A stretch of DNA of 64,000 bases from Clarias gariepinus. Taxonomy: Eukaryota. Made by a program: the position numbers. The DNA lies in contig NC_071110.1 in the NCBI RefSeq assembly GCF_024256425.1, positions 2,727,451 to 2,791,450 on the forward strand, read 5' to 3'. Of this stretch, positions 4,126 to 15,988 are shown one piece after another. How positions within the stretch are numbered: position 1 is the first letter of the stretch; the number at the start of each line of letters is the position of its first letter.

Positions 4126-5112
4126 TGTAAATATGCATGGAAGTCTTATTTAAAGTGAATTATAAGCCAAGAAATGAAATAGACAATGTCTATGTCAATA
4201 AATTTTAAAAAATTGTTTATTGCTGTGTGGTACTGATTGAGAGACCGTATCGCCTTACATATCGCCTTACATGTTGAGAATTTGTGTAAATAGTCTTCTT
4301 TGTGATTTATGATAATATTCTCATAAATTTTATTCGGAATTGTTAAAAATATTTTTGGTCCAAGACTGTATATTGTATATTTAAATGTGTTTTTAGTCTG
4401 TATAGGGAAGTAGCTGTGTAAAGGGATAAATTAACAAAACATGTGAAGACAAGTGAGAGCAAAAAAAAAAAAAAGACAGTGAGACTAGACTCAGCATGGA
4501 AGCAAGACCATTAATTTTATTACAGAAACCTCTACAACAGTCTGATTTATAAACATTGTGGGCAAAATAAGATTTAAATAAAAAATATTTCTCACATCTG
4601 TTCACTAATCTACGGAGCCCCCCAGGGGTCATGAGGAGGAAAAAAGAACAAACAGAGCACACGGATTAATAAATCATGCGCTCGATTAATAAATCGTGTG
4701 CACGGAATAATGAACCGAGAGCGCGGAATAAAATATCCGTGCGTGCGGACTAATAAACCTTGCGCGCGGAATAATAAAACCGTGTGCGCGGATTAATAAA
4801 CTTTGAGCACTAAATAATAAACAGTGCGGGCGGAATAATAAACTGAGCGCGCTGATTGGTTTACACGTCTGGATTCGAAGTTATGACCTGGTCGGACATG
4901 GACGGAGAGGAAGGAGCTCATACAGCCAGCACAACAACTTTAAGGTATGTAACCAACTTTTCACTTAATATTTACCCATTTAACTTAATTTTAAAGGTTT
5001 GTGGATAAGTTTGCTTGTTCCACACATTTTATGAGGCTTTTCTGTGCCCCATCTTTTGCTCCAGGCTATCTTTAAAATGTAAATATAGTGTAACAACACC
5101 ATGCTTCCCCCG

Positions 5113-5149
<37 letters not shown>

Positions 5150-11100: not shown

Positions 11101-14100
11101 TGTTGTTTGTTATTCTGAAGTGTTTTACTGAGTTTACTATTTTTGTAGTGAATTCTACATTTCTAAGTAGAAGTTGGTAATTATTTAAGTAACTCCCAAC
11201 ACTTCAGTGTAGTTATTGATGTTCATGTATCTATGATGTTTAAAAAAACTTTTACAGAAAACATTTATTGGTTATGTTTTATTATAAATGTCTTAAATAA
11301 AGTGTTTTGTACCACAAATTACTGTTTGTCTTTTAATAATTTTTGTTAGATTTGAACAATAATAAAATGCTGTTAAACCTTAAAGGTAAATATGATAATT
11401 TAAGCACTTTAATATTAAAACAATGACCTGCTTTCACACTTTATTCTAATAATTTGAATGTTGCTTATTAAAGCATAGCACTTGTGAAACATTGTAAAAA
11501 AAAAAAAAAGAATTGTTAGAAACCATAAACACATGACTTGAAGTTGTAAAATAATGTCTACTTTTATCTGAACGGCTTCCTCAGTTCTGAGTAGTGTGGA
11601 GTCCCAGATGTGGCGTCAGTCTGTCAAAGTCACATGAGTTAAGATAAGTATCTGTGGTTTTGCAGACTATAGGGCCAAAATATTTCTATCTTCGTACCTC
11701 TGAAGGATCAATATGACATTTACTTTTAATTTTACATTTACCCAGTAAAGGGAAAAGATACATTTTCTTTTAATTTTACAGTACATTGGCATGCATGAAC
11801 ACAGCCCCATTTACACAAACATTATCTTTCAAAGTCTAGACGATTTGTTAGTTCTTGTCGTAGGAAGAGGTAGAGGTCCAATGCCATGTAAGTGTCCCCA
11901 GGAACATGAAGATTATTTTCAGCCATGATGGAGGTGCACAGTGTAATGTGTCGTTATCACCAACGATGTCGGATCGGTGGACACAGTCATTTTCATAATG
12001 GTTGACTTCATCCTCTGGAATCTGGCATAAGTAGTCCTGTGTGTTGTATAGTTCTGGTAATAAATACATGACTTCAGGGCATCCATGGGGAACTCTCTGG
12101 TTTCGTGACGGACGAATAAGGTGACTATTCCATGACTCTTTGACAGCATCCAATTCAGTCTGAAGACAGAAAGAGGAGAGTACAAGTACATTAAAACAGA
12201 AGTCTATGCAGAACAAATAAATATTAAAATATTTTTACATATTTATGTACATATGTTTTTATAACGGAGATTATTTTGTGTGAGAATGACTTACTTTTAT
12301 GATACCAAGAAAGCAGAAGATGATAAGATTTTTATCTAGGAATTCCCCATTGAAAACACCTTCATTTTTGAGGCTATGGAGTTGCTCCAGCCAAAACTCC
12401 ACACACTCTTTGCGAAGAATTCCCCACCAACTTTCAATTCTTTGGTAACTTGTGCTTCGCCCATAGATGAAACTTCTTTCACCACTTTGTAAGTCAAGAT
12501 CATTTTGACGCAAGGACCGCTGAATGTCTCGGATAGAGCTGTTCTCGGTTCCCATGTCTGCTCTTAAAGTACGAGGACAACCACCAGTTTCTCTTACTGT
12601 CTCGAGAAAATATCCACCAATAACTTTGGGATCACTGTTTGTGTTGTATGCATTGAGCCACAAAATCATCCTTGAGAATCCATCTATGGCTCCGTTTATA
12701 CATATGCCAAAAGGCTTTAACTTGTCGTATGAATCAACATGCCATACAAAATTTGGACCCTTCGCGAAGTAAGCTCTTCTGTTGAGTCTCCTCTGCCTTC
12801 TCAAGTCTCTGCCTACTGGATCCAGACTTGAAAGAATGAAACGAACATCTTCTTTTCGAACATGTAATCCCTTGTCTTTACATTTACTGTACAACCAACG
12901 GTAGCCATGCAGGGCCCCTGAGCCCTCCAGTTCTTCTTTTATGAACTGAATAACATTTTCAAGATTGTCAAAGTGTTTACGACGAAAGAATACATTCTTT
13001 TTGAGAAATCGCTTTAGTGTTTTTAGACTCACAATAATTCCATGTCTTACACTTAGAATGTGAAGAATGTCTGTATATTTAAGACCCAAAAGAAAATAAA
13101 GTTCAATTAGCTGTGATTTATCCATGCCAGAAAATATCCAGGCAAGGCAGTAACTGTTCACAAGTCAGTGAAGTACCAAAAGGAAAGAATGATTTATGGT
13201 GCAAAACAATTATTTGCAGTTGGAATACTCTGCTCCAAGGTCAGCCACCTGTTAACATGAGATAAACAAAGAAAAGGTGATTTTGTCAAATCCTTAATTA
13301 TAGATATAATTCAAGGAATATTATGCAAGTCTACACTGACCAAAGCATTACAACTGCCCATTCATTCAAGTATTTAGATGTCCTACATGTTAAATATTAA
13401 CCATACACCCTAGTGCACTTTTATACAGATGACAAGAGAATAAAGAGTTAACGATGTGATGTCCTACTCCAAATTCCTTCCTTCTACTTTTATGCTATTA
13501 TAACTACTATGCTATTCTACGTTTATACAGTATAATGTGGGAATAGAGCAATATAAAAAGGTCAATACTAGAGTCTAAAAACAAAAAAAAAGTTGTTTGT
13601 GAAACCTTCCAATTGCGATGCACTTACCTTTTCATTTACAAACACGGAGATGATGCCCTGATCCAACTCACGCTGTTGTTGCAGAAAGTCTAGAAATCCC
13701 TGATCCATTCTGTCCAAAAACGGCAAATACACACATAAAAAAGCACAAACTGTTCAGTCAGTCTGTCGGAATGCATCTTTTAGACCAATCTGTGCCTCCC
13801 TTTATACACCTACTGTATACGGGTTGACTCGCGGTGAGATTCGGGTTTTTCGCGTAAAAAGATGGAAATGTAATGACATGATGCATGAAACGTAATCATG
13901 ATGAACCGTATTTACGGCCACTGCGCGAAACCGCATAGGTGAGATCGGGGTATTAAACATAATATAAAAAATATTCTCTCCGCATATGTGACATGATATT
14001 TTTTGTAAAAAACGCAAGGAAAGACTGTGTATTGTTACATTCAGCATACATAATGTTAAAGTATAACCAAAACCGGACTAGCCCGCGGTGACGTTGGTAT

Positions 14101-15988
14101 GAAGTTGGACATTCGCGCTCCGGCTTCGCTGTCAGAGTCCGGCGACCAAACCTCGTCTACTGCGCGAGTTAATGACTGTCTGTAAATTACTGACTGAATA
14201 TGAATAATATTCATATTATAAATATTATATTAATATTTATTCTCCGCCGCAAATCAGGATCTGAAAGCCGGCGCGCGAATATCCAAGGTCCAACTTTAAA
14301 CCAACTTCAGCGTGGTCCGGAACCGATTGAAGTAAACAACAGCCTTATGGAAAATGAGATCGCAGAATATTATAGTGTGTGTGTGTGTGTGTGTGTGTTC
14401 GGGGGAAGCATGGTGTTGTTACACTATATTTACATTTTAAAGATAGCCTGGAGCAAAAGATGGGGCACAGGAAAGCCTCATAAAATGTGTGGAACATGCA
14501 AACTTATCCACAAACCTTTAAAATTAAGTTAAATGGGTAAATATTAAGTGAAAAGTTGGTTACATACCTTAAAGTTGTTGTGCTGGCTGTATGAGCTCCT
14601 TCCTCTCCGTCCATGTCCGACCAGGTCATAACTTCGAATCCAGACGTGTAAACCAATCAGCGCGCTCAGTTTATTATTCCGCCCGCACTGTTTATTATTT
14701 AGTGCTTAAAGTTTATTAATCCGCGCACACGGTTTTATTATTCCGCGCGCAAGGTTTATTAATCCGCACGCAGGGATATTTTATTCCGCGCTCTCGGTTC
14801 ATTATTCCGCGCACACGATTTATTAATCGAGCGCATGATTTATTAATCCGAGCGCATGATTTATTAATCCGTGTGCTCTGTTTGTTCTCTTTTCCTCCTC
14901 ATGACCCCTGGGGGGCTCCGTACTTTATTTTATTTTTATATATTTATTATTATACAAGTATCATTTGATTACAATGTACAATGTACAATGTACTTTAATT
15001 ATATAGGCACAATATTAATGAAAGTCTTATAATATATTAAAATACAGTATTATGCTGTATATCACATCACATCATGTATAATATTGTATAATAAAAAGCA
15101 AAAATAAAGTGTTTGTTTCCCAATGAAAAACATAAATTTTTACAATTTTAACACATTTAGTGCAAATAATTCTAATAGTTCTAATAGTTGTTGTTGTTTT
15201 TTAAATGAACAGACAGATGAGCCACAAAATGAAGTTATGGGAAAGAGGGTTGGTTGAGAAGAGAGGTGACAATCTGAGAGCAGCAGTAAGGCTTCATGCC
15301 AAAAAAGAGCACCACAGATTCAGGACTGCACCAGGGACTATGATGTTTGTGGATGATATTATCAGCAGTGAGAATATGGAACTGGTTCAGATGAGTTTAG
15401 GGAGATGGAGAGATGCACTGGAGAGATGAGGCATAAAGATCAGGAGGAGCAAGATGGAATACATGTGTGTAAATGAGAGAGATGTTAGGGGAGAGGTGGA
15501 GTAGCAAGGAGTAGAGGAAGGGAAGGTAGAGGAGTGTAAATATTTAAGGTCAACTGTGCAAAGCATTGGGTAGTTGGTATGGAAGTGAAGAAGAGAGTGC
15601 AGGGTGAAATGGGTGGAGAAGAGTAGCAGGAGTGATCTGTGACAAAAAGGTATTGGCAAGAATGAAAGGAAAAGTTTAGTACGGTAGTACTACAGGACGA
15701 GACCAGCAATGTTGTATTGTTAGGAGATGTTGCCGCTTACAAAAAGACAGAGCTGGAGGTGGAAAAGCTGAAAATGCAGCAATTTGCTCAAATATGACAT
15801 TCAAGACATGGAATCCTAAAGTTTCAGAAAATGTAGATGAGCCCTTATCGCCGGTCAACAAAATGATTGACCAGTCTCTTCTTAGATTTAACAATGTAAA
15901 AAATGTTTACATCTCTTATGGAAAAGATCATAGACAGCAAGAAACACATAGCTATCTATCACACCCAGATATCTACCTATTTATCCAC

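What the first reader, a model, noticed from the sequence alone, without database searches (positions are those of the whole stretch)
4611..14923. Roughly 10.3-kb element with about 1.4-kb inverted repeats that each carry a TATA box, an identical 27-codon first exon and a GTAAGT splice donor pointing inward
The two about 1.4-kb repeats are near-perfect reverse complements. Each contains TATAAAG, an ATG about 92 bp downstream, the 81-nt exon MDQGFLDFLQQQRELDQGIISVFVNEK and then GTAAGT. On the left side this exon splices in frame to a strong acceptor at 6262, extending into an unknown protein of about 560 aa. On the right side the nearest gene is an rve-type DDE integrase. Placing a promoter and a shared coding first exon inside the inverted repeats is a rare architecture for a DNA transposon. 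MuDR inverted repeats carry promoters, but not shared coding exons. In this case the arrangement would give both convergent genes the same N-terminal 27 residues. No target-site duplication was found, and the family cannot be assigned from sequence alone. It may be IS3EU- or Ginger-like given the rve core, but the long repeats and three-exon integrase are atypical.
Basis: partly seen in the sequence, partly recalled or inferred. Interest (0 to 1): 0.9.

Follow-up and report, generated by a model that had tools for sequence, protein, structure and literature searches.

The report
Decayed two-gene IS3EU fish transposon
This is a dead copy of a two-gene IS3EU/GingerRoot-type DNA transposon in a catfish genome; its terminal inverted repeats have grown inward over the leader exon and first coding exon of its HECT-ligase-like gene, which is unusual in detail but belongs to a known transposon superfamily.

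Summary
Window 4611-5995 and 13400-14922 are inverted repeats (1385 and 1523 bp, 1.38% substitutions, 4 indels). Each arm carries TATAAAG, the 27-codon exon and GTAAGT. No target-site duplication is present.

The element is a member of the IS3EU/GingerRoot superfamily. Its DDE core is 60% identical to Repbase IS3EU-1_CGi. Its termini are TACGG..CCGTA. Four related elements from three fish genera have perfect 6-bp duplications.

The "unknown protein" is a conserved HECT-fold protein. Its exon1-exon2 junction matches NCBI gene models from other fish.

Integrase homologues all start at their own ATG (13125 here). The only in-frame acceptor for the repeat-borne exon is weak and lies inside the integrase coding sequence, so a shared N-terminus is unlikely.

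Relatives have shorter repeats (212-612 bp) that exclude the coding exon. They do carry, or immediately precede, a non-coding leader exon with an inward splice donor. The window has this leader too (donor at 4945 and 14567), which places the TATA box in an intron.

The 1.4-kb repeat is therefore a lineage-specific inward extension of a repeat-borne leader design resembling maize MuDR. This copy is dead: frameshifts in both genes and a nonsense codon in the HECT gene.

The parts
4611..14922 (.). Whole element (10,312 bp): an IS3EU/GingerRoot-type DNA transposon copy with termini TACGGAGCC...GGCTCCGTA and no target-site duplication
   Evidence: the same terminal motif in L002-L004 and L009
4611..5995 (+). 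Left inverted-repeat arm (1385 bp)
13400..14922 (-). Right inverted-repeat arm (1523 bp); 1.38% substitutions against the left arm, plus 4 indels
4662..4852 (+). Left subterminal array: 9 copies of a 21-bp unit (CGGAATAATAAACCGTGCGCG); presumed transposase-binding sites
   Evidence: the motif has 22 hits against 4.7 expected, 17 of them in the two arms; similar arrays in L003, L004 and L009
14655..14871 (-). Right subterminal array: 10.3 copies of the 21-bp unit
4856..4944 (+). Inferred leader exon 0 (5' limit unknown), ending CTTTAAG|GTATGT with the donor at 4945; an ATTGG (inverted CCAAT) lies at 4862-4866
   Evidence: homologous to the leader exon of Melanotaenia L003 that ends CCAG|GTAAGT inside its 100%-identical repeats
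14568..14656 (-). Right-arm copy of leader exon 0, with the donor at 14567-14566 pointing towards the integrase
5685..5766 (+). Coding exon 1 of the HECT-like gene (acceptor cag|A at 5684/5685, ATG at 5686, 27 codons, donor GTAAGT at 5767)
13628..13709 (-). Duplicated copy of coding exon 1 in the right arm, 503 bp upstream of the integrase ATG; probably a skipped cassette exon or the start of an upstream ORF
6262..8009 (+). HECT-like gene exon 2. Disabled by a 24-bp deletion at 6403, a +1 A at 7009 (frameshift) and TAG at 7931 where the near-identical contig L007 has CAG
9723..9916 (+). HECT-like gene exon 3 (C-lobe end, with the conserved catalytic-Cys motif SHTCGCVLEVPNNY and the stop codon)
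12295..13248 (-). Integrase exon carrying the ATG (13125). Candidate 5'UTR acceptor at 13249|13248. The DDE core (PF24764 rva_4) lies within the coding part of this exon (13125-12295); donor GTAAGT at 12294
11822..12159 (-). Integrase last exon; a 1-nt deletion at 11949 shifts the frame of the C-terminal ~40 residues
10421..10864 (+). Nested fragment in the intergenic spacer whose ORF resembles the C-terminal tail of a non-LTR retrotransposon ORF (identified by eye only). This stretch is largely different in the second assembly of the locus
   Evidence: Pfam gave no hit
14070..14330 (.). Nested palindromic MITE-like insert inside the right arm; the left-arm copy (about 5190-5390) has lost 128 bp

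Best explanation
Identity. The locus is one decayed copy of a cut-and-paste DNA transposon of the IS3EU/GingerRoot superfamily, in a teleost genome. The flanks are 99.98% identical to Clarias gariepinus chromosome CM044214.1.

Family design. Between the terminal repeats the family carries two convergent genes. One is a HECT-fold protein of about 667 aa, with an N-terminal helical domain, a beta-rich domain, a disordered linker and a HECT domain with the catalytic Cys. The other is a DDE integrase-like transposase of about 389 aa.

Repeat layout. Each terminal repeat starts TACGGAGCC. An array of about 21-bp repeats follows; these are inferred transposase-binding sites. Then comes a short leader exon with a splice donor pointing inward. 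I infer that each repeat acts as a promoter-plus-leader cassette. The same leader would splice to the coding exon of the HECT-like gene on one side and to the 5'UTR acceptor of the transposase gene on the other. This resembles maize MuDR, whose terminal repeats drive mudrA and mudrB.

What is special here. In the window's sublineage the identical region has spread inward, most plausibly by gene conversion or template switching between the two ends (inferred). It now covers intron 0, the first coding exon of the HECT-like gene and 229 bp of intron 1. The transposase side therefore carries a redundant copy of that exon. That copy is most likely skipped. If included, it would form a 39-codon upstream ORF ahead of the transposase ATG. 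It is unlikely to give the transposase a shared N-terminus.

State of this copy. It is non-functional (two frameshifts, one nonsense codon, one 24-bp deletion, nested insertions) and lacks a target-site duplication.

Shown: repeats, gene content, superfamily membership, target-site duplications in relatives, disabling mutations.
Inferred: promoter position, splicing pattern, mechanism of repeat growth, HECT activity.
For: Superfamily membership:
- Pfam rva_4 scores 79 bits against a cut-off of 26.
- The DDE core is 60% identical to IS3EU-1_CGi_2p and 53% to IS3EU-1_DR1p, taken from the published alignment.
- Published hallmarks are TA..TA or TAYGG..CCRTA termini and 6-bp target-site duplications.
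- Relatives start TACGGAGCC and have perfect 6-bp duplications: AGAAGG, GATTCA, ACTTCC and GAATTC.

Gene pair inside the repeats:
- It is found in L001, L003, L004, L009 and the window.

HECT-like protein:
- Pfam HECT scores 27.5 bits against a cut-off of 23.9.
- The AlphaFold model matches whole HECT domains of NEDD4, HUWE1 and Smurf2 at E about 1e-9.
- Exon 1 joined to exon 2 matches NCBI models P0123, P0124, P0128 and P0132.

Leader exon:
- The 100%-identical 612-bp repeats of L003 both contain ...CCAG|GTAAGT. Acceptors lie just before the HECT ATG and 74 nt before the integrase ATG.
- L004 and L009 have donors just inside the repeat on the integrase side, and acceptors 50-60 nt before the integrase ATG.
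- The window has the homologous leader and donor and an acceptor immediately before ATG 5686. L001 has the same acceptor.

The extension is derived:
- Repeat inner edges lie at 337 bp in L004, 612 bp in L003, 38 nt upstream of exon 1 in L001, and beyond exon 1 in the window.

The junctions are real and shared:
- Logan contigs L005, L006 and L007 from two other sequencing runs carry the same inner junctions, with independent frameshifts.
- The second assembly L010 also carries them.

Integrase start and right-side splicing.

Disabling mutations.
Against: - No RNA data were available, so promoter position, leader-exon use and all splicing on the right side are inferred from sequence and from gene models in other species.
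- This copy has no target-site duplication. That the long-repeat form transposes as a unit is therefore not shown directly.
- I could not search the source genome, so copy number is unknown. The near-identical contigs L005-L007 could be orthologous or allelic loci rather than paralogues.
- A weak in-frame acceptor (13111|13110) leaves an exon1-integrase fusion formally possible.
- TATAAAG at 5588, 92 bp upstream of the ATG, could be an internal alternative promoter.
- HECT catalytic activity and any role in transposition are untested.
Confidence: 0.75

Rival explanations
1. The 1.4-kb repeats are a designed bidirectional module in which the TATA promoter and the 27-codon exon are used on both sides. 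On this model the HECT-like protein and the integrase share the same N-terminal 27 residues.
For: Both arms keep an intact ATG, an open 27-codon exon and a GTAAGT donor; the only change in the exon is synonymous. An in-frame acceptor exists at 13111|13110 and would replace only integrase residues 1-5.
Against: All full-length integrase homologues start at their own Met with no extension. The in-frame acceptor has a poor pyrimidine tract (10 of 20) and lies inside the coding sequence. The stronger acceptor at 13248 gives a stop after 12 further codons. Exon 1 encodes helices 1-2 of a folded domain of the HECT-like protein. The closest outgroup L001 and the more distant L003, L004 and L009 have no exon 1 copy on the integrase side. 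An acceptor directly before the ATG and an upstream leader exon argue that the TATA box is intronic.
Confidence: 0.08
2. The long repeat is a one-off local rearrangement of a dead copy, for example recombination between two copies or an inverted duplication after insertion. On this model it is not a form of the element that ever transposed.
For: This copy has no target-site duplication, whereas four related elements have perfect 6-bp duplications. Both genes are disabled. The only genome locus I could retrieve with this subfamily is the same locus in a second assembly.
Against: Contigs from two other sequencing runs carry the same inner junctions. They differ by independent private mutations, and one pair (L005, L007) has intact reading frames. 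The two assemblies of this locus are almost identical in the flanks (about 1 difference in 4.2 kb on the left). They differ at about 0.5-0.9% within 4611-12081 of the element, often towards the L005/L007 state. That pattern suggests sequence exchange with, or misassembly from, other copies. The repeat inner edge sits at a different depth in each lineage, with L001 intermediate, which suggests gradual growth rather than one accident.
Confidence: 0.2
3. The extended repeat acts, or acted, as a hairpin-RNA source that silences the family, in the manner of maize Mu killer. Read-through transcription across both arms would give sense and antisense copies of the leader, exon 1 and the introns.
For: The arms are 1.4 kb, 98.6% identical and include transcribed sequence. 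The precedent is Mu killer, an inverted duplication of TIRA plus the 5' part of mudrA (PMC3440606).
Against: There is no small-RNA or transcript evidence. The arms are 7.4 kb apart. This reading does not exclude the best explanation and would be a by-product rather than the origin of the structure.
Confidence: 0.1

Closest known systems
[quoted passage not shown]
   Same: The DDE integrase-like transposase lacks an HHCC zinc finger, and its core is 53-60% identical to Repbase IS3EU proteins. The termini are TA..TA (TACGG..CCGTA). Related copies have 6-bp target-site duplications. The superfamily is reported in fish.
   Different: Published repeats are 30-150 bp; here they are 212-612 bp in relatives and 1.4-1.5 kb in the window. 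A second, HECT-fold gene and a repeat-borne leader exon with a splice donor are not described in any paper I could search. Repbase entries themselves could not be consulted.
Fungal IS3EU families that carry accessory genes (alpha-kinase, TET/JBP dioxygenase; PMC12730594)
   Same: They are IS3EU elements ending TAYGG..CCRTA with 6-bp duplications, and they carry an accessory gene in the opposite orientation to the transposase.
   Different: The accessory here is a HECT-fold protein, not a kinase or dioxygenase. The hosts are fish.
Maize MuDR (Mutator superfamily)
   Same: Two convergently transcribed genes, a transposase and an accessory protein, with promoters and transcription starts inside the terminal inverted repeats (PMC3440606).
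   Different: The transposase is unrelated (MULE vs IS3EU). MuDR repeats are about 215 bp and its duplications are 9 bp (the 9-bp figure is from my own knowledge). Here promoter activity of the repeats is inferred, not shown. The repeat also carries a spliced leader exon and, in this lineage, a coding exon.
Mu killer (inverted duplication of TIRA plus the 5' part of mudrA)
   Same: A long inverted duplication that includes a terminal repeat and the 5' part of a transposon gene.
   Different: Mu killer lacks the element's centre and is a known silencer. Here the full element lies between the arms, and silencing is untested.

Membership tests
IS3EU/GingerRoot | DDE transposase that groups with IS3EU/GingerRoot proteins | tested here: met
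   BLASTP of the 115-aa core gives 60% identity (E 2e-53) to IS3EU-1_CGi_2p and 53% (E 2e-46) to IS3EU-1_DR1p, both taken from Data S3 of PMC10045372. Pfam PF24764 rva_4 has E 4e-22. No phylogeny was built.
IS3EU/GingerRoot | Termini 5'-TA...TA-3' (TAYGG..CCRTA in fungal families) | tested here: met
   The window ends are TACGGAGCC...GGCTCCGTA. L002, L003, L004 and L009 have the same motif.
IS3EU/GingerRoot | 6-bp target-site duplication, tested on this copy | tested here: not met
   The flanks are CTAATC and CTTTAT, and no adjacent shared 6-mer exists. In the second assembly the left junction is deleted.
IS3EU/GingerRoot | 6-bp target-site duplication, tested on the family (related elements with the same termini and genes) | tested here: met
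   L003 AGAAGG, L004 GATTCA, L002 ACTTCC and L009 GAATTC.
IS3EU/GingerRoot | No HHCC zinc finger or GPY/F module around the DDE core | tested here: met
   The 130 residues before the first catalytic D contain a single Cys. Pfam finds only rva_4, plus a weak HTH_Tnp_Tc3_2 hint in P0003.
Ginger1 / Ginger2-TDD | Gypsy-like integrase with HHCC and GPY/F (Ginger1), and CCGG- or CCGT-specific target-site duplications (Ginger1) | tested here: not met
   No HHCC or GPY/F was found. Duplications in relatives are 6 bp and not CCGG. The Ginger definitions come from the PMC2836005 abstract.
Mutator/MuDR | MULE-type transposase | tested here: not met
   The transposase is rva_4/IS3EU. The resemblance to MuDR is architectural only.
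HECT-type ubiquitin ligases (the accessory protein) | HECT fold with N-lobe and C-lobe | tested here: met
   In the AlphaFold model of P0124, residues 339-660 have pLDDT mostly 80-94. Foldseek against PDB gives NEDD4, HUWE1, Smurf2 and ITCH HECT domains at E about 1e-9, probability 1.00, about 375 aligned columns. Pfam PF00632 is above its gathering score in P0123, P0124 and P0132.
HECT-type ubiquitin ligases (the accessory protein) | Catalytic cysteine in the C-lobe | tested here: met
   The motif [SA]HTCGCVLE[VLM]PN is conserved in P0123, P0124, P0125, P0128 and P0132 and in window exon 3. It lies in the stretch that matches Pfam HECT positions 205-292. The residue-level match to the canonical Cys was judged by eye.
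HECT-type ubiquitin ligases (the accessory protein) | Ubiquitin thioester formation and ligase activity | not testable with these tools
   This needs biochemistry.

The most novel reading that the evidence does not exclude
A widespread IS3EU lineage, with apparently live copies in teleosts (100%-identical repeats, intact genes and perfect duplications in Melanotaenia and Misgurnus), uses its terminal repeats as symmetric promoter-plus-leader-exon cassettes. These splice into two convergent genes. One gene is a transposon-encoded HECT-type ubiquitin ligase that the element needs, for example to modify the transposase or to remove a host restriction factor. The inward-creeping repeat in the catfish copy would then be a visible trace of end-to-end gene conversion in such elements.
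Probability: 0.4. Interest if true: 0.65.

Novelty: new variant of a known kind. Interest (0 to 1): 0.45.

Why it matters
The window copy itself is a dead transposon and has no functional importance. The family it belongs to has three points of interest.

1. It is a vertebrate IS3EU lineage with apparently recently active copies, which makes it a candidate for transposition assays or tool building.
2. It carries a conserved HECT-fold gene. No paper in the searchable library describes such an accessory gene in a DNA transposon. The protein family has 330 50%-identity clusters at E<=1e-30.
3. Its terminal repeats seem to double as promoter and leader-exon cassettes for both genes. This would be a MuDR-like solution reached by an unrelated superfamily.

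The series of repeat inner edges (337 bp, 612 bp, just upstream of exon 1, and beyond exon 1) also documents how terminal repeats can grow inward.

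Tried and rejected
- Pfam on the window's own broken HECT-gene fragments gave nothing. The HECT call needed full-length homologues and a structure model.
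- A sequence search of P0124 against PDB found nothing.
- No target-site duplication was found, even allowing displaced 6-10-mers within 400 bp of each end.
- The second assembly of the locus could not settle this, because it has a 417-bp deletion over the left junction.
- L008, a distant relative from an ENA assembly, has tangled repeats and only a fragment of the integrase, so I did not use it.
- P0123 and P0149 could not be located on contigs.
- Literature searches for IS3EU+HECT, G2E3+transposon, IS3EU+ubiquitin, HECT+DNA transposon and transposon-encoded+HECT gave nothing relevant.
- Folding the leader exon as RNA showed no special structure (z = +1.1).
- I considered probing for other copies with small ORFs from the repeat. 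I dropped the idea because k-mer assemblies break in the 21-bp arrays and would not reach the flanks.
- From memory, the HECT-like protein resembles fish genes annotated 'G2E3-like'. I did not test this and make no claim.
- A SAM-domain reading of the N-terminal helical domain got no Pfam support.

Full report
**1. Observation**

The inverted repeats are real. The repeat finder and blastn place them at 4611-5995 and 13400-14922.

A direct alignment of the arms gives 1385 vs 1523 bp, with 19 substitutions in 1374 aligned positions (1.38%). There are four indels: one 21-bp subterminal unit, 10 bp of (CA)n, 128 bp, and 1 bp.

Each arm carries these features:
- TATAAAG at 5588-5594 and 13806-13800.
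- An ATG 92 bp downstream, at 5686 and 13708.
- The same 27-codon exon, with one synonymous difference at 5703.
- A GTAAGT donor.

Exon 2 of the left gene starts at 6262, after ctcctctgcag. The flanks (CTAATC and CTTTAT) are not a target-site duplication, and no displaced duplication was found.

A second assembly of the same locus is L010 (Clarias gariepinus GCA_024256435.1, CM044214.1). Its left flank is 99.98% identical to the window. It has the same repeats and the same inner junctions. The structure is therefore not an assembly artefact, and the window comes from this catfish or a very close relative.

**2. Genes**

*Right gene (minus strand).* It is a DDE integrase-like protein (Pfam PF24764 rva_4, E 4e-22).
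- The database holds 619 homologues from fish, molluscs, echinoderms and insects.
- Full-length members have about 385-390 residues and all begin at the equivalent of MDKSQLIELYF, which is ATG 13125 here.

*Left gene (plus strand).* It has coding exons 5686-5766, 6262-8009 and 9723-9916.
- Full-length homologues from NCBI annotation have 640-696 residues. They come from Melanotaenia (P0123), Brachyhypopomus (P0124, P0132) and Corythoichthys (P0128).
- They begin MDxxFLxFLQ...EK|IDCYAVN.
- These proteins pass the Pfam HECT gathering score over the C-lobe.
- An AlphaFold model of P0124 has four parts: a confident N-terminal helical domain (1-64), a beta-rich domain (110-210), a disordered linker, and a domain at 339-660.
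- Foldseek matches the 339-660 domain to complete HECT domains of NEDD4, HUWE1, Smurf2 and ITCH (E about 1e-9, probability 1.00).
- The C-lobe Cys motif (SHTCGCVLEVPNNY) is conserved, including in the window.
- The protein family is large: 330 clusters at 50% identity with E<=1e-30.

**3. This copy is dead**

I compared the window with near-identical contigs L005 and L007 (Logan run SRR30889357) and L006 (run SRR32542950).

| Gene | Defect in the window copy |
|---|---|
| HECT-like | 24-bp deletion at 6403 |
| HECT-like | +1 A at 7009 (frameshift) |
| HECT-like | TAG at 7931, where L007 has CAG |
| Integrase | 1-nt deletion at 11949, shifting the last ~40 residues |

L006 has an independent 10-bp insertion ten bases away. 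L005 and L007 have open frames. The window also holds a nested retrotransposon-like fragment (10421-10864) and a palindromic MITE-like insert in the arms.

**4. What kind of element**

I fetched related loci that encode both proteins. L002 and L003 are from Melanotaenia boesemani, L004 from Misgurnus anguillicaudatus, L009 from Brachyhypopomus gauderio, and L001 from a Logan contig.

| Locus | Element length | Repeat length and identity | Target-site duplication |
|---|---|---|---|
| L003 | 9850 bp | 612 bp, 100% | AGAAGG |
| L004 | 6655 bp | 337 bp, 100% | GATTCA |
| L002 (keeps only the integrase) | 3082 bp | 212 bp, 99% | ACTTCC |
| L009 | 7735 bp | 286 bp, 95% | GAATTC |

Sources.

In L001, L003, L004 and L009 the two genes are convergent. 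In L003, L004 and L009 they lie between inverted repeats that start TACGGAGCC; L001 is a contig that stops short of the element's ends.

The literature defines IS3EU/GingerRoot by three features: a 6-bp duplication, TA..TA termini (TAYGG..CCRTA in fungal families), and a DDE protein without an HHCC finger (PMC6839031, PMC10045372, PMC12730594).

The window's DDE core is 60% identical to IS3EU-1_CGi_2p and 53% to IS3EU-1_DR1p, both from the published alignment. Membership of IS3EU/GingerRoot is therefore established for the family. The single unmet feature is the missing duplication of this particular copy.

**5. The terminal repeats carry a leader exon**

*Melanotaenia (L003).* Both 100%-identical repeats contain a short exon that ends CCAG|GTAAGT.
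- On the HECT side, an acceptor (tttgtcatag|A) lies immediately before the ATG.
- On the integrase side, an acceptor (ctttccctag|G) lies 74 nt before the ATG.

*Misgurnus (L004).* The HECT ATG is 33 nt inside the repeat edge. On the integrase side there is a donor (CCGG|GTACGT) 15 nt inside the edge and an acceptor 51 nt before the ATG.

*Brachyhypopomus (L009).* The pattern is the same.

*The window.* It has the homologous leader...GGACATGGACGGAGAGGAAGGAGCTC...CTTTAAG|GTATGT. The leader ends at 4944 on the left and 14568 on the right. A strong acceptor, ttgccgtttttggacag|A, sits right before ATG 5686. L001 has the same acceptor.

I therefore infer that transcription starts in the outer repeat, next to the 21-bp arrays (9 and 10.3 copies). 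The same leader would splice into both genes. None of this has been checked against RNA data.

The closest analogue is maize MuDR. Its terminal repeats contain the promoters and start sites of the convergent mudrA and mudrB genes (PMC3440606).

**6. Why the repeat is so long here**

The inner edge of the repeat differs between lineages:
- L004: before the donor (337 bp).
- L003: 220 bp into intron 0 (612 bp).
- L001: a 19-nt shared block that ends 38 nt upstream of the exon 1 acceptor. This is the closest outgroup, and it has no exon 1 copy on the integrase side.
- The window: 229 bp into intron 1.

The coding exon inside the repeat is therefore a derived, lineage-specific extension. Its most likely cause is gene conversion or template switching between the two ends; this is an inference. 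As a hint of such exchange, five of the 19 arm differences in the window are erased in the second assembly of the locus.

**7. Consequence on the integrase side**

Scanning all AG acceptors downstream of the right-hand exon gave these results:
- The best candidate is 13249|13248 (cag|G, 14 of 20 pyrimidines). It yields MDQ...NEK+VADLGAEYSNCK*, a 39-codon upstream ORF that ends about 87 nt before ATG 13125.
- The only in-frame join that keeps the integrase uses a weak acceptor (10 of 20 pyrimidines) inside the coding sequence, after codon 5.
- The ancestral 5'UTR acceptor is conserved 50-75 nt upstream of the ATG in L001, L003, L004 and L009. In the window and L005 it is mutated (cag to tgg), and these two have a roughly 70-nt insert that carries the 13248 acceptor.

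Exon 1 encodes helices 1-2 of the folded N-terminal domain of the HECT-like protein. All homologous integrases start at their own Met. I therefore rate the shared-N-terminus idea as unlikely. The duplicated exon is most likely skipped, or acts as an upstream ORF.

**8. Is the long-repeat form a family or a single accident?**

Points in favour of a family:
- L005 and L007 both begin with the innermost 30 nt of the repeat, then continue into the integrase side and the HECT side respectively.
- L006 joins 193 nt of the repeat to the integrase upstream region.
- The three sequences and the window differ by private mutations. L005 is close to their consensus.
- The two assemblies of the window locus are nearly identical in the flanks, yet differ at about 0.5-0.9% within 4611-12081, often towards the L005/L007 state. 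Exchange with other copies, or misassembly from them, would explain this.

These points favour a multi-copy sublineage but do not prove it. I could not search the catfish genome, and this copy lacks a duplication.

**9. Novelty**

The superfamily is known. Accessory genes in the opposite orientation are known in fungal IS3EU elements (alpha-kinase and TET/JBP).

Three features were not found in the searchable literature:
- a HECT-fold accessory gene;
- repeat-borne leader exons that serve both genes;
- a repeat that has engulfed a coding exon.

Repbase annotations could not be consulted. The name 'IS3EU-1_CGi_2p' implies that at least one Repbase IS3EU entry has two proteins. I classify the finding as a new variant of a known kind, of moderate interest. 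The specific window copy is a decayed relic.

Noticed in passing
L003 8829-18678 (Melanotaenia boesemani CM030238.1) and L004 8590-15244 (Misgurnus anguillicaudatus): These elements have 100%-identical terminal repeats (612 and 337 bp), perfect 6-bp duplications and intact annotated genes for both proteins. The identical integrase protein P0004 also occurs on a second Melanotaenia chromosome (L002). These look like recently or currently active vertebrate DNA transposons.
   Followed up: partly
L002 8986-12067: A 3.1-kb internal-deletion derivative that keeps only the integrase gene. It has 212-bp repeats and the duplication ACTTCC. The deletion starts inside the leader exon on the HECT side.
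   Followed up: partly
L009 9583-9922 and 16964-17317: Each end of the Brachyhypopomus element is itself bounded by the terminal motif in both orientations (TACGGAGCC...GGCTCCGTA). The motifs enclose a palindromic array of 21-bp units. Each end therefore looks like a complete MITE-like mini-element.
   Followed up: no
window 4193-4613 vs L010 9717-9720: The second assembly of the same locus lacks 417 bp of left flank plus the first bases of the terminal repeat. It also differs in most of 9520-10900, where the window has the retrotransposon-like fragment. Differences between the two assemblies are concentrated within 4611-12081 of the element, while the flanks are nearly identical.
   Followed up: partly
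window 4885-4944 joined to 5685 onward: If leader exon 0 is spliced to exon 1, an upstream ATG at 4885 is in frame with ATG 5686 and no stop intervenes. This would add MTWSDMDGEEGAHTASTTTLR to the protein. It is not conserved in Melanotaenia, where the leader ATG is out of frame.
   Followed up: no
window 2640-3284 (-), 17224-17808 (-), 49152-49697 (-): A TRIM-type RING/B-box exon and two B30.2 (PRY-SPRY)-like exons. The element sits between members of a tandem TRIM (finTRIM-like) cluster. In L010 the neighbouring gene is annotated with RING, B-box, PRY and SPRY domains.
   Followed up: no
window 19132-23400 (+) and 43319-46708 (-): GC-rich (52-58%) Ty3/Gypsy-type LTR retrotransposon ORFs (gag, protease, RT, RNase H, integrase, chromodomain-like tail). 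They explain the composition jumps in the window. A related fragment lies at 32303-33235.
   Followed up: no
window 26151-27992 (-): A 613-codon ORF in a 67.6% GC stretch, made largely of tandem proline-rich repeats (PPPSVAPAPQ and similar). Its origin is unknown.
   Followed up: no
window 48197-48250 (-): An Rfam UnaL2 LINE 3' element (57.7 bits, gathering score 55). It was the only Rfam hit in the window.
   Followed up: no
window 56984-57448 (-), 59144-62692 (+), 41936-42445 (+): Other mobile-element ORFs, identified by eye only: a Tc1/mariner-like transposase fragment, a non-LTR retrotransposon (endonuclease and RT ORFs), and an RT fragment.
   Followed up: no
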